Positions 8,268-12,770 of a stretch of 64,000 nucleotides of DNA are shown piece after piece; position 1 is the first letter of the stretch, and the number at the start of each line of letters is the position of its first letter. The notes beneath the pieces are model-generated. The model worked only from the letters and a program-made list of their open reading frames with translations. It was not told the DNA's origin and did no database searches. Location: assembly GCF_024502345.1 (NCBI RefSeq), contig NZ_JALDNN010000001.1. One strand, 5' to 3'. The stretch is from Escherichia coli (GTDB lineage Bacteria; Pseudomonadota; Gammaproteobacteria; Enterobacterales; Enterobacteriaceae). A program made the position numbers and the translations under genes.

Positions 8268-9044
8268 TTAAAGATTAACGACTTCACCATCTTCAGGGAT
8301 ACTAACCTGGTCAGTAATCTTATTAAGATCTACATACTCATGGATTTCTTTTCGGGTTTGTCCAAAATGATTTACAGATTCCATATGTGTGGAAATAATA
8401 TGTGCTTTTGGAAGTATGTTATGTGTCCTTAGCACATCTTCTTTACCCATGATAATAGGCCCCAGATTTTCCACCTGCGCATATCCCGTATTCAGGATAA
8501 CGATATCAGGCTGATATTTATGCATAACCTGCTCTACATCATTAATCCAGATAGTATCACCAACTATATAGATAGTCTTTTCGCCATCAGACTGGAGAAT
8601 AACCCCCATAGCTTCACCTAATAGCTCTGCCGCAGCGGGGTTGCGGAATGCCTCATCACTACCATGTTGACAGTGAGTTGGAATTAAGCGAATTCCGGCG
8701 TATTCAATTTCATTATCAAGAACTTGTAGGTTAATAAATCCATCGCGGGCCAGTTCGTTTTTGTCTTCAGTATTCTGTACAAAAATAAGCATATCGCGAG
8801 GGATCAGCGCCCGGGCAGCAGCATCCCAGTGGTCATCATGCGTATGAGTAACAATAATAGCATCTACATCAATAACCTCTGATACCGGTAGAGGTAAGTC
8901 AACAAGAGGGTTCCGTAAATGGCGGTTCATCGTCAATGGAAAACCAGGGAATGAACCTTTTGCTGATAACATCGGGTCAATCAGGATTTTTTTTCCTGCA
9001 TAATGAATAATTGCAGTGGCGTTACGGATCTGATGAAATTTCAT
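8268..9044 (-). CDS. MBL-fold metallo-hydrolase (258 aa)
   Basis: Metal-binding motif THTHDDHWD (HxHxDH); no N-terminal signal peptide, so not an obvious secreted class B beta-lactamase. Confidence 0.8.
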   Translation of the reverse strand: MKFHQIRNATAIIHYAGKKILIDPMLSAKGSFPGFPLTMNRHLRNPLVDLPLPVSEVIDVDAIIVTHTHDDHWDAAARALIPRDMLIFVQNTEDKNELARDGFINLQVLDNEIEYAGIRLIPTHCQHGSDEAFRNPAAAELLGEAMGVILQSDGEKTIYIVGDTIWINDVEQVMHKYQPDIVILNTGYAQVENLGPIIMGKEDVLRTHNILPKAHIISTHMESVNHFGQTRKEIHEYVDLNKITDQVSIPEDGEVVNL

Positions 9045-9114: not shown

Positions 9115-9896
9115 TTATATCGCTTCTGAACCCCTGAATGTTTTTCGCCATACGGACGGCGATACGCCAAATTTTGCGATAAACTTTTCCCGTAAAGATG
9201 TTGCGGAACTAAAACCAACCAGCTCAGATACCTTCTGTACAGAGTGGGCTGTAGATTCCAGTAATACCTGCGCTTCTCTCAGACGCTCCGTTGTTAACCA
9301 GTCAACCAGTGTCATGCCCGTCGACTGTCGGAAGCGGCGTGTAAAGGTTCGTCGGCTCATGCTAACGACTTCACAAAGTTCATCCAGCGTCCAGCGTCTG
9401 GCCAGGTCCTGGCGCAGCGTTTCAACCAGCAGAATTATCTGGCGATCCTTTGTTGCAGATGGAAAAGGCATCTGAATATACTGAGCCTGTCCCCCGTCCC
9501 GATGAGGCGGGATCACCATTCGCCTTGCTATCTGATTGGCAATATTGCTCCCGTACAACTCCCTGACCAGATACAGACAGCAGTCCATACCCGCACCTGT
9601 ACCGGCAGAAGTAATAATATTATCGTCAGCTACATAGAGCGCATTCATATCCAGGTGGGTATTCGGAAACCGTGACTGAAAATCACTCTCATACAACCAG
9701 TGTGTCGACGCGTTTCTTGCATCCAGTAGTCCTGAATAGGCCAGAGCATAGGCACCAAGGCACAAACCCACAATGGTGGCATTATGCTGTGCAGCTTCCC
9801 GGAGTGCTTCCGTTAACTGTGGCTCCGGTACAATGTCAGGCGATGGCCAGAAAGGAACTATAACCATGTCAGCAGTACGTAACACCGATAAGTCAT
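9115..9896 (-). pseudogene. GlxA-type regulator (DJ-1/PfpI-like domain + AraC-family HTH), C-terminal part of a gene split by the IS2-like element
   Basis: DJ-1-type nucleophile region IVGLCLGAYALA followed by an AraC-type HTH (RRTFTRRFRQSTGMTLVDWL); the frame stays open upstream to the IS boundary at 9896. Confidence 0.8.
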
Positions 9897-9987
9897 TGAT
9901 GTAGCCCCCTGAAACACCGGACAGTAGCTGTATCTCCAGATAAGAGATAGGCTTGAATATATGTCTAACACTAACGCCAATTTTGAG

Positions 9988-10356
9988 ATGACCGGGATCC
10001 TGTTAGGGCAAGAAGTCCGTAAACGTAAAACTCCTCAGGAGAAGATCGCCATTATCCAGCAGACGATGGAGCCGGGTATGAATGTCTCCCATGTCGCCCG
10101 CCTGCATGGTATCCAGCCCAGCCTGCTGTTTAAGTGGAAGAAGCAATATCAGGAAGGCAGCCTCACCGCCGTTGCGGCTGGAGAGGAAGTCGTTCCTGCT
10201 TCTGAGCTTACTGCTGCTCTGAAGCAGGTCCGGGAGCTTCAGCGCCTTCTGGGCAAGAAAACGATGGAAGTTGAGATCCTGAAAGAAGCCGTGGAGTACG
10301 GTCAGTCGCGAAAATGGATAGCGCACGCGCCCTTGTTGCCAAAGGACGGGGAATAG
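9988..10356 (+). CDS. IS2-like orfA (InsC-like)
   Basis: [25 protein letters not shown]...[18 protein letters not shown] parallels IS2 InsC; start taken at the internal ATG 9988 rather than the ORF-track start 9961. Confidence 0.85.
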
Positions 10357-11195
10357 CCATGGTCAGCCGGACCATGGGCGTGTCGCGTGCGCAACTGTCA
10401 CTGCGGATTAACCGTTCTGCCGACTGGCAGGACAGGCGCTGTAACCGGCGTAATGAAGAAGCAGACGCAGAAATACTGTCGGCTATCCTCAACATTATCA
10501 GCGATATGCCGAGTTATGGTTATCGACGCGTGTGGGGCATCCTGCGCAAGCAACGTCGCACAGAGGGACAGCCACCTGTGAATGCCAAACGGCTTTACAG
10601 GATAATGAGCGAGCATAACCTGTTGTTGTTGCATCACAAACCAGAGCGACCGAAGCGTGAACATAAGGGCAAGATAGCGGTGGCAGAAAGCGATATGCGC
10701 TGGTGTTCAGATGGCTTCGAGTTCGGCTGCGACAACGGCGAAAAACTGCGGGTAACGTTCGCGCTGGACTGCTGCGACCGTGAGGCCATAGACTGGGCAG
10801 CAAGCACGGGAGGCTATGACAGTTCGACCGTGCAGGATGTGATGCTGAGGTCGGTGGAAAAGCGCTTCGGCGACAGGTTGCCCGACACAGCGGTGCAGTG
10901 GCTGACGGATAACGGTTCAGCGTATACCGCGTATGAAACGCGGAGGTTCGCGAGAGAGCTGAATCTGGAGCCCTGCACAACAGCGGTGAGCAGCCCGCAG
11001 AGTAATGGCATGGCCGAACGGTTCGTGAAAACGATGAAAGAAGACTATATCGCGTTCATGCCAAAACCGGATGTGAGAACAGCACTGCGAAACCTTGCAG
11101 TAGCGTTCACGCATTACAATGAAAACCACCCGCACAGCGCGCTGGGATATCACTCCCCGAGGGAATACCGGCGGCAGCGGACATCGTTAACTTAA
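10314..11195 (+). CDS. IS2-like orfB (InsD-like, integrase-core domain)
   Basis: MDSARAL...[26 protein letters not shown]...WLTDNGS...[13 protein letters not shown] parallels IS2 InsD. Confidence 0.88.
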
Positions 11196-11232
11196 GATAC
11201 AAAAGCTGTTCGGAGATGGAGGGTCAAGATCA

Positions 11233-11419
11233 ACACCGATAAGTCATATTCCGGTGTAATATGCATACCATGTGAGGTTTTTATAGTCTTTCCCTGCACG
11301 GAGCATAAAACAACGTTAAATAATGAATGGTCCGGGATAATATCTGCAAAAATTGCCAGGGGTACGGAGAGATGAAATGCACTGATATCATCGGTTATCA
11401 AAATGGCTATCTTTTTCAT
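11233..11419 (-). pseudogene. GlxA-type regulator, N-terminal 61 codons (MKKIAILITDDISAFHLSVPLAIF)
   Basis: Start codon at 11417-11419 with a GGAGAG ribosome-binding site; the frame ends inside the IS2-like element; the sequence continues in 9115-9896 after a 15-16 bp direct repeat. Confidence 0.75.
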
Positions 11420-11438: not shown

Positions 11439-11843
11439 TTAACTAATCTGACGTACGATATCGTTATAATCAAAGTGCGCACGTTTTTCCTTAATTTTAC
11501 CGCCTTCAATAGTCAGCAGCATCATCAGAGAAATACGTACTTTTTTCCCGGTTGGTTTATATCCGTGCATTTCATTATTGTGGATACCTTCAAAAACAAC
11601 ATAAGCTACGACTTTATCCGCTTCACTGATAAGAACTTCAGGCTTCATGCTGAAGCCCCGGAATCCATCAAGTGTGGCAGTTTCAGATGCGATAAAACCG
11701 TCAACTCCATGAATGGGGTTATCTATCTGTGAATAGAAAACAAAGTCACTGGAGCAAAGTGATTTAAGGGTTAAAAAATCATAACCTTCAAGAGCCTGAT
11801 AAAAATCATGTACAAGTTTTTCATTTGAGTTTTTCATGGTCAT
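11439..11843 (-). CDS. SnoaL-like / NTF2-fold protein (134 aa)
   Basis: Small ORF 19 bp upstream of the regulator gene on the same strand; sequence pattern resembles SnoaL/ketosteroid-isomerase-like proteins (family call is tentative). Confidence 0.6.
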   Translation of the reverse strand: MTMKNSNEKLVHDFYQALEGYDFLTLKSLCSSDFVFYSQIDNPIHGVDGFIASETATLDGFRGFSMKPEVLISEADKVVAYVVFEGIHNNEMHGYKPTGKKVRISLMMLLTIEGGKIKEKRAHFDYNDIVRQIS

Positions 11844-12035: not shown

Positions 12036-12611
12036 TTACTGTCCTGCCTTTACCCTGAGTATGGTTTGCCGGGTTGTATTAAACTCCCGAGCAATGGCGC
12101 TGATACTGGCCCCGGCCTTAATACGTGCAATCACAGAAAGTTTCTGTTCTTCATTCAGTGTTGAAGGACGGCCAAACCGCTTTCCGGCAGCTTTCGCTCT
12201 CGCAATACCAGAGTGCGTACGCTCAAGAAGCAAATCCCTTTCAAATTCTGCCACAGCAGAGATGACCTGCATGGTCATTTTTCCTGCCGGGCTTGTCAAA
12301 TCAACTCCGCCCAGCGCGAGGCAGTGAACGCGAATATCTGAAGCAGCCAGTTGTTCAACCGTTTTTCTGATATCCATCGCATTGCGCCCCAGTCGGTCGA
12401 GTTTAGTAACAATCAGCACATCACCATTTTCCATGCGATCAAGCAGCCGGATAAATCCGGGGCGTTCGCTGGCAGCAACCGAACCACTGATATGCTCCTC
12501 AATCAGTCGCTGGGGTCTGATGGCAAAACCCGCCGTTTCAATTTCACGCCGCTGATTTTCTGTAGTCTGTTCCAGAGTGGAGACCCGGCAATAAGCAAAA
12601 ACTCGTGACAT
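12036..12611 (-). CDS. tnpR: serine recombinase / resolvase TnpR (191 aa from [15 protein letters not shown])
   Basis: N-terminal catalytic serine motif (YCRVST) and C-terminal HTH; divergent from tnpA; start taken at the internal ATG 12609-12611 rather than the ORF-track start. Confidence 0.88.
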
Positions 12612-12770
12612 AGGAAACTTTCCGTACGTAAAGGATGTCCGAATTATAGCGTGTGTACGAAATAAATTTCGCTTACTTTCGGACATACTGTCAGCTTAGT
12701 GTACGAAACCGACCGGTTTCGGTCACAGCGAACAAATAACAGATGAAAACTATACGCGAGGGAGGCATTT

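What the first reader, a model, noticed from the sequence alone, without database searches (positions are those of the whole stretch)
9881..11247. Unusually long 15-16 bp direct repeat flanking the IS2-like element
The sequence ACACCGATAAGTCAT (with a preceding A) occurs at 9881/9882-9896 immediately left of the IS and at 11232/11233-11247 immediately right of it. IS3-family elements normally make 3-5 bp target duplications, so a 15-16 bp duplication is atypical. It could mean an aberrant transposition product, or that the repeat was a pre-existing short duplication in the target gene. The repeat encodes the DLSVL segment present in both halves of the split regulator.
Basis: seen in the sequence. 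Interest (0 to 1): 0.45.

Follow-up and report, generated by a model that had tools for sequence, protein, structure and literature searches.

The report
ISEcl1's normal 15-bp target duplication
The 15-bp repeat is real, but it is the usual footprint of this insertion sequence (ISEcl1), whose lineage duplicates 15-16 bp of target instead of the 5 bp made by its relative IS2.

Summary
ACACCGATAAGTCAT occurs exactly twice in the window, directly abutting a 1336-bp IS at 9897-11232. The "16th" base, A at 11232, is the IS's own last base.

- Intact alleles of the interrupted GlxA-family regulator gene carry the 15-mer once, so it was not pre-existing. These alleles are in 35 plasmids and about 69 E. 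coli records.
- The event is not aberrant. Other copies of the same element, very probably ISEcl1 (IS3 family, IS2 group), show the same footprint.

Across 78 distinct flank pairs of ISEcl1-like copies:
- 23 have a 15-bp duplication.
- 14 have a 16-bp duplication.
- 2 have a 5-bp duplication.
- 39 have none (rearranged or decayed copies).

In the sister IS2-like clade (74 flank pairs), 48 have 5 bp, 3 have 4 bp, and none is longer.

The long class averages 15.4 bp, about 10.4 bp (one DNA helical turn) more than 5 bp. Discrete classes spaced this way are published for IS481, IS1202 and IS481EU. The same paper describes IS3-family duplication lengths as conserved. I found one paper that mentions "14-bp DRs" around an ISEcl1 copy.

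The locus itself is ordinary. The lineage-wide pattern is a modest, apparently under-reported extension of a known phenomenon.

The parts
9882..9896 (.). Left copy of the 15-bp target-site duplication (ACACCGATAAGTCAT)
   Evidence: Exact match. It abuts the first base of the IS.
9897..11232 (+). Complete 1336-bp insertion sequence, very probably ISEcl1 (IS3 family, IS2 group). Its ends are TGATGTAG... and ...CAAGATCA, with imperfect terminal inverted repeats.
   Evidence: 100% identical full-length copies in many replicons start and end exactly here. It is the only copy in the window. ISEcl1 is listed as 1336 bp, IS3 family, in PMC5001619 Table 2. Database names for the two proteins point to ISEcl1.
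9961..10356 (+). orfA (131 aa), the IS2-type TnpA / DNA-binding part of the transposase
   Evidence: ORF list. The best NCBIfam match is IS2 repressor TnpA, E 5e-60, below the curated cut-off.
10314..11195 (+). orfB (293 aa), the DDE catalytic part, in the -1 frame relative to orfA. Identical copies are annotated as one 402-aa product made by programmed frameshift.
   Evidence: ORF list. NF033516 transpos_IS3 scores 199 bits against a cut-off of 160, and IS2 TnpB gives E 7e-125. RefSeq annotates identical copies as a joined CDS with 'programmed frameshift'. Invariant D133, D199, E235 and K242 in the alignment.
11233..11247 (.). Right copy of the 15-bp target-site duplication
   Evidence: Exact match. 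It follows the last base of the IS.
9115..9896 (-). 3' part (nt 173-954) of the interrupted GlxA/FtrA-like AraC-family regulator gene
   Evidence: ORF list. NCBIfam FtrA-like match, E 2e-85. RefSeq annotates the intact gene as a GlxA family transcriptional regulator. The gene restored by removing the IS encodes 317 aa identical to WP_000716854.1.
11233..11419 (-). 5' part (nt 1-187) of the same regulator gene. It then runs into the IS.

Best explanation
The repeat is the ordinary target-site duplication left when a copy of ISEcl1 (IS3 family, IS2 group) inserted into codons 58-63 of a GlxA-family regulator gene and inactivated it.

Shown:
- The uninterrupted allele has the 15-mer once.
- The IS boundaries are exact.
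- This lineage typically leaves 15 or 16 bp duplications and occasionally 5 bp. The sister IS2 lineage leaves 5 bp.

Inferred from family knowledge:
- The element moves by copy-out-paste-in through a circular intermediate.
- The OrfAB transposase joins the two 3' ends of the IS to the two target strands at staggered positions.
- Repair of the single-stranded gaps duplicates the bases in between.

Inferred from the numbers:
- In this lineage the two joining positions are usually 15-16 bp apart rather than 5 bp.
- That is one helical turn further along the same face of the target DNA.
- The transposase is otherwise collinear with IS2-type transposases.
For: - **Exact repeat.** A 15-mer sits directly at both IS ends, with 0 expected by chance.
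- **Single copy in intact alleles.** The 533-nt restored query matches in one colinear piece at 99.6-99.8% in 35 plasmids and 69 E. coli records. pSE11-2 has one 15-mer with identical flanks. The restored protein is identical to WP_000716854.1.
- **First survey of copies.** Among twelve 100% identical copies and one 99.8% copy, 10 at 9 distinct sites had 15 or 16 bp, one had 5 bp, and two had none.
- **Pooled survey.** After genome, metagenome and viral scans, ISEcl1-like copies gave 15 bp x23, 16 bp x14, 5 bp x2 and none x39. IS2-like copies gave 5 bp x48, 4 bp x3, none x23 and nothing longer.
- **A divergent relative.** An element with OrfB 77% identical to the window's also has a 16-bp duplication.
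- **The 5-bp case is genuine.** The restored target equals intact ISEcp1 at 100% over 195 nt in more than 3000 plasmids.
- **Helical spacing.** The long class averages 15.38 bp, which is 10.4 bp above 5.
- **Precedent.** Discrete classes of about 4-6, 15-17 and 24-29 bp, about 10 bp apart, are described for IS481, IS1202 and IS481EU (PMC10045372).
- **Prior mention.** One ISEcl1 insertion was reported with '14-bp DRs' (PMC10913469).
Against: - Half of the ISEcl1-like flank pairs (39 of 78) have no duplication. Most of these are decayed copies in a Sodalis endosymbiont genome or rearranged plasmid contexts, so they say nothing about length.
- All lengths come from database copies, not from observed transposition events.
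- I could not compare the element with the ISfinder reference (AF342826). The name ISEcl1 rests on size, family and group, and database protein names.
- The helical-turn geometry is an inference. The OrfB alignment shows only 2-aa and 1-aa indels between the two clades, so no determinant was identified.
Confidence: 0.93

Rival explanations
1. The target gene already contained a short tandem duplication of the 15-mer, and the IS inserted between the two copies with a short or absent duplication of its own.
For: None was found.
Against: Intact alleles in 35 plasmids and 69 E. coli records align colinearly to a query containing one copy. pSE11-2 has exactly one 15-mer. The one-copy reconstruction encodes a protein identical to WP_000716854.1.
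Confidence: 0.01
2. This was a one-off aberrant transposition event, with a mis-spaced strand transfer by an element that normally makes a 5-bp duplication.
For: The IS2 group is tabulated with 5-bp repeats (PMC10425158 Table 8; PMC10045372). Two copies of this same element do have 5-bp duplications.
Against: 37 of the 39 ISEcl1-like copies that keep a duplication have 15 or 16 bp, at unrelated sites in many hosts. The long class is therefore the norm and the 5-bp class the exception.
Confidence: 0.03
3. Two independent insertions of the IS about 10 bp apart in sister molecules, each with a 5-bp duplication, recombined through the IS. The hybrid would carry the left flank of one and the right flank of the other, giving an apparent 15-bp repeat.
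For: Recombination between IS copies does occur. Many copies lack matching flanks.
Against: It would require the same 10-11 bp offset, in the same orientation, at 37 unrelated sites. No other insertion of this IS in this gene was found in the plasmid or E. coli collections or in any fetched locus.
Confidence: 0.01
4. The IS boundaries are misplaced and the 15-mer is part of the element.
For: None.
Against: The flanking repeat has a different sequence at every insertion site, while the 1336-bp core is constant. BLAST matches of 100% identical copies end exactly at 9897 and 11232.
Confidence: 0.005

Closest known systems
ISEcl1 (ISfinder; IS3 family, IS2 group; first described in Enterobacter cloacae, accession AF342826)
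   Same: Length is 1336 bp, and the family and group match. The element has two overlapping ORFs with a programmed frameshift. Its hosts are Enterobacter, Klebsiella and E. coli plasmids. The exact OrfA sequence carries the UniRef name 'Transposase of ISCel1', and a member of the OrfB cluster is named 'IS3-like element ISEcl1 family transposase' by NCBI. One published ISEcl1 insertion is flanked by '14-bp DRs'.
   Different: Nothing was found to differ. I could not align the element to the ISfinder reference. A published table gives ISEcl1 the generic IS2-group repeat length of 5 bp, which does not match what its copies show.
IS2 (type member of the IS2 group of the IS3 family)
   Same: The orfA/orfB layout is the same, and the OrfB proteins are collinear at 61-69% identity with the same DDE residues. 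The ends are positionally homologous, each with 8 nt before a CCCC(C) run on the left and GGG.CAA..CA on the right. The overall size is similar, at 1331-1336 bp.
   Different: IS2-like copies leave 5 bp (48 of 51 that keep a duplication, the other three 4 bp) and never more. ISEcl1-like copies leave 15-16 bp. The IS2 left end starts TA, while both ISEcl1 ends are TG...CA. ISEcl1 OrfA has an N-terminal extension of about 10 aa.
IS481 family, IS1202 group and eukaryotic IS481EU: elements with discrete duplication-length classes
   Same: They also show classes of about 4-6, about 15-17 and about 24-29 bp, roughly one helical turn apart. A single family (IS481EU-7_TV) gives several classes (PMC10045372). 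ISEcl1 shows 5 and 15/16 bp from identical copies. The transposases are related: the IS481 model gives E 6e-27 on OrfB.
   Different: Those elements encode a single-ORF transposase without a frameshift and typically start TGT. ISEcl1 scores below the IS481 cut-off (95 against 224 bits) and above the IS3 cut-off. No 24-29 bp class was seen for ISEcl1. The same paper states that IS3-family duplication lengths are conserved, with the IS2 subgroup at 5 bp.

Membership tests
IS3 family | DDE transposase matching the family model above its curated threshold | tested here: met
   NF033516 transpos_IS3 scores 199 bits on OrfB against a cut-off of 160. D133, D199, E235 and K242 are invariant in the alignment.
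IS3 family | Two overlapping ORFs (orfA, with orfB in the -1 frame) fused by programmed frameshift | tested here: met
   orfA is 9961-10356 and orfB is 10314-11195, in the -1 frame. Identical copies are annotated in RefSeq as a joined CDS with 'programmed frameshift'. The frameshifting itself was not tested.
IS3 family | Terminal 5'-TG...CA-3' and imperfect terminal inverted repeats | tested here: met
   The ends are TGATGTAG... and ...CAAGATCA. The two ends compared share TGAT and scattered further matches.
IS3 family | Target duplication of 3-5 bp | tested here: not met
   The window has 15 bp. The lineage has 15 bp x23, 16 bp x14 and 5 bp x2. This is a descriptive trait of the family rather than a criterion of homology.
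IS2 group of the IS3 family | Closest similarity of both proteins to IS2 TnpA and TnpB | tested here: inconclusive
   The best NCBIfam hits are IS2 TnpA (201 bits, cut-off 229) and IS2 TnpB (416 bits, cut-off 597). They are the top matches but fall below the subfamily cut-offs. The literature places ISEcl1 in the IS2 group.
IS2 group of the IS3 family | 5-bp target duplication | tested here: not met
   Only 2 of the 39 ISEcl1-like copies that keep a duplication have 5 bp. Of the IS2-like copies that keep one, 48 of 51 have 5 bp.
ISEcl1 (the named element) | At least 95% nucleotide identity to the ISfinder reference (AF342826) | not testable with these tools
   The reference is not in any collection I could reach. 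Indirect support comes from the exact length of 1336 bp and the database protein names.
IS481 / IS1202 (elements with discrete long duplication classes) | Single-ORF DDE transposase matching the IS481 model above threshold | tested here: not met
   The IS481 model scores 94.8 bits against a cut-off of 224, and the element has two ORFs with a frameshift. It behaves like these elements in duplication length but is not a member.

The most novel reading that the evidence does not exclude
The ISEcl1 lineage may be the first recognised IS3-family lineage that uses the 'one helical turn longer' mode of target joining: 15-16 bp, with occasional 5 bp from the very same element. Its well-studied relative IS2 (61-69% identical, collinear transposase) uses only the 5-bp mode. 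If so, an E. coli-tractable pair of transposases exists in which chimeras could map what sets the duplication-length class. The authors who described the discrete classes in IS481, IS1202 and IS481EU left that question open.
Probability: 0.4. Interest if true: 0.55.

Novelty: new member of a known kind. Interest (0 to 1): 0.38.

Why it matters
For this window it matters little. It is a routine IS knockout of a regulator gene, carrying the footprint normal for that IS.

The wider point has practical and mechanistic value:
- **Annotation.** Tools and published tables assume 3-5 bp duplications for IS3-family elements; one table lists 5 bp for ISEcl1. With that assumption they will miss or misjudge ISEcl1 footprints. 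ISEcl1 is common on Klebsiella and Enterobacter resistance plasmids and sits next to mcr-8.2.
- **Mechanism.** Two close, collinear transposases (ISEcl1 and IS2) differ by one helical turn in strand-transfer spacing. ISEcl1 can also use both spacings. This gives a direct experimental handle on how DDE transposase complexes set duplication length.

Tried and rejected
- **End-finding heuristic.** A first automatic method (TG/CA ends plus inverted-repeat score plus duplication) was too noisy for diverged copies. I replaced it with fuzzy matching to clade-specific end motifs.
- **Literature.** Searches linking ISEcl1 to '15-bp', '15 bp' or '16 bp' found nothing. A broader search was swamped by unrelated papers. 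Among the papers I opened that mention both ISEcl1 and direct repeats, only PMC10913469 gave a number for a specific insertion (14 bp); PMC10425158 lists only the generic group value of 5 bp.
- **Confirming the name from published plasmids.** CP079783 is not in the collections. The coordinates given in the pGA45 paper do not match the deposited record. I used database protein names instead.
- **Same insertion elsewhere.** No record in the plasmid or E. coli collections covers 80% or more of a query spanning both junctions. No fetched locus has either junction.
- **Target preference.** Base counts over 25 restored targets showed no clear consensus. AT content was only mildly raised, at 0.57-0.62.
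- **Protein determinant.** The OrfB alignment shows only a 2-aa insertion and a 1-aa deletion in the ISEcl1 clade. No conclusion was drawn.

Full report
**1. The observation**

- The window reads ...GTACGTA-ACACCGATAAGTCAT|TGATGTAGCCCCC... on the left and ...GGGTCAAGATCA|ACACCGATAAGTCAT-ATTCCGG... on the right.
- The 15-mer occurs exactly twice in 64 kb even with one mismatch allowed. None is expected from shuffles.
- The repeat finder gives a 16-mer at 9881-9896 and 11232-11247.
- Between the copies lies a 1336-bp element with orfA (9961-10356) and orfB (10314-11195, -1 frame).

**2. Boundaries of the element**

- A search of complete E. coli genomes found 285 records with matches. Of these, 17 are 100% identical over the whole query 9897-11232.
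- With a longer query, those matches still begin at 9897 and end at 11232, give or take a few chance bases.
- In 13 fetched copies the core TGATGTAG...CAAGATCA is constant while the flanks differ.
- The A at 11232 therefore belongs to the IS, and the duplication in the window is 15 bp.

**3. One copy or two in the intact gene?**

- I removed the IS and one repeat copy and searched with the resulting 533-nt sequence. It matches as a single colinear piece at 99.6-99.8% identity in 35 plasmids and 69 E. coli records. There the gene is annotated as a GlxA family transcriptional regulator, next to an ester cyclase.
- Plasmid pSE11-2 (NC_011413.1) has the 15-mer once, with 40 identical bases on each side.
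- The restored CDS encodes 317 aa identical to WP_000716854.1. The duplicated bases are nt 173-187.
- The repeat was therefore created by the insertion. No record in either collection carries this particular insertion, and no other fetched locus does.

**4. Is the length aberrant?**

No. Among the first 13 copies (12 identical, one 99.8%), six sites had 15 bp and three had 16 bp. One had 5 bp, and two copies sharing a left flank had none.

I widened the sample with three scans:
- A genome scan with OrfB.
- A metagenome scan with the left end of the IS. It also showed 49 different left flanks, so the element has inserted at many distinct sites.
- A viral-contig scan.

Flank pairs were counted once each:

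| Clade | Distinct flank pairs | 15 bp | 16 bp | 5 bp | 4 bp | 0-3 bp (none) | Longer than 5 bp |
|---|---|---|---|---|---|---|---|
| ISEcl1-like (ends TGAT...CAAGATCA) | 78 | 23 | 14 | 2 | 0 | 39 | 37 |
| IS2-like (ends TAGAYTGGCCCC...CAAATCCA; OrfB 61-71% identical) | 74 | 0 | 0 | 48 | 3 | 23 | 0 |

- Most ISEcl1-like copies without a duplication are decayed copies in Candidatus Sodalis endolongispinus or sit in rearranged plasmid contexts.
- For copies with exactly the window's end sequences, the counts are 15 bp x20, 16 bp x11, 5 bp x2 and none x11.
- A more distant relative (L180; OrfB 77% identical, DNA 78%) has a 16-bp duplication.
- One of the 5-bp cases was checked. The copy sits inside ISEcp1, and the restored target with a single TCAGA is 100% identical over 195 nt to intact ISEcp1 in more than 3000 plasmids. 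The same element can therefore make either class.
- Restored targets show no clear sequence preference.

**5. What the element is**

- OrfB passes the IS3-family model (199 bits against a cut-off of 160). Both proteins are closest to the IS2 TnpA and TnpB subfamily models but fall below their cut-offs.
- ISEcl1 is listed as a 1336-bp IS3-family element (PMC5001619) of the IS2 group.
- The exact OrfA sequence is named 'Transposase of ISCel1' in UniRef. A member of the OrfB cluster is named 'IS3-like element ISEcl1 family transposase' by NCBI.
- I could not align to the ISfinder reference, so the name is very probable rather than proven.

**6. How it most likely works**

- *Shown:* the duplication, its single-copy origin, and its typical length for this lineage.
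- *From established knowledge of the IS3 family:* movement is by copy-out-paste-in through a circle. The two 3' ends of the IS are joined to staggered positions on the two target strands. Gap repair then duplicates the bases between them.
- *Inferred:* the stagger is usually 15-16 nt in ISEcl1. The long class averages 15.38 bp, which is 10.4 bp more than the 5 bp of IS2 and of ISEcl1's own minor class. That difference equals one turn of B-DNA. The two joining positions would therefore lie on the same face of the helix, one turn further apart.
- *Not identified:* the determinant. The OrfB proteins of the two clades are collinear apart from a 2-aa and a 1-aa indel.
- *Other differences, of unknown relevance:* ISEcl1 has TG...CA at both ends, whereas the IS2 left end starts TA. 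ISEcl1 OrfA has an N-terminal extension of about 10 aa.

**7. Comparison with what is known**

- Kojima (PMC10045372) reports discrete duplication classes of about 4-6, 15-17 and 24-29 bp in IS481, IS1202 and IS481EU, about 10 bp apart. Sometimes several classes occur within one family. The mechanism is left open.
- The same paper contrasts this with 'relatively conserved' lengths in the IS3 family, giving 5 bp for the IS2 subgroup.
- A table compiled from ISfinder gives ISEcl1 a repeat length of 5 bp, apparently the generic group value.
- One plasmid paper notes in passing an ISEcl1 insertion 'flanked by two 14-bp DRs' (PMC10913469).
- No paper in the searchable library links ISEcl1 with 15 or 16 bp.
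- ISEcl1 therefore behaves like the IS481/IS1202 elements in this one respect. By protein model and ORF structure it is an IS3-family element, not an IS481 member.

**8. Verdict**

The feature at 9881-11247 is real, and for this element it is ordinary. It is neither an aberrant event nor a pre-existing repeat. What is mildly new is the generalisation: a whole lineage inside the IS2 group makes 15-16 bp duplications, with rare 5 bp, while its sister lineage makes 5 bp.

This extends a published phenomenon to the IS3 family and offers a convenient experimental pair. It may already be recorded in ISfinder, which I could not consult. I score interest at 0.38.

Noticed in passing
L163:3584-4942 (IMGVR_UViG_2788500177_000005): An ISEcl1 copy (98% identical to the window's) carries a tandem duplication of its last 23 bp (CCGGAAATGGCGGGTCAAGATCA x2). 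Counted from the outer copy, the element is 1359 bp and is flanked by a 5-bp duplication, GATAC.
   Followed up: partly
E. coli records H1, H20, H22, H24 and metagenome locus L113: Several ISEcl1 copies span 2502 bp instead of 1336 bp. An IS110-family transposase gene is annotated under the E. coli matches, so a second IS of about 1166 bp appears to have inserted into ISEcl1. Whether the insertion point is the same in all of them was not checked.
   Followed up: no
L020-L058 and L074 (Candidatus Sodalis endolongispinus, NZ_JAFJYC010000001.1): This endosymbiont genome holds at least 40 copies of an ISEcl1-like element (OrfB 88-93% identical). Many have internal deletions or stop codons and no matching flanks. 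A few keep 15-16 bp duplications, some with 1-2 mismatches.
   Followed up: partly
L110, L154, L156 (metagenome contigs) and 7 of the left flanks listed: A recurrent context in which the ISEcl1 left end directly follows ...GAAGTGGATTTGCC. This looks like the first 10 bases of an IS2-type terminus (TGGATTTGCC). No matching duplication is present on the right side.
   Followed up: no
window 8268-9044, 11439-11843 and 12036-12686 (all - strand): The interrupted regulator gene sits between an MBL-fold hydrolase gene and an ester cyclase gene. The same trio is found on pSE11-2 and on many plasmids and E. coli chromosomes. A 216-aa ORF at 12036-12686 looked by eye like a serine recombinase/resolvase but was not searched. 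Its presence nearby would suggest a mobile module.
   Followed up: partly
E. coli record NZ_CP061754.1 (H5/H111): One bovine E. coli O18ac:H14 chromosome carries 15 places matching this IS. The median among genomes that have any match is 1, which suggests a recent burst of transposition in that strain.
   Followed up: no
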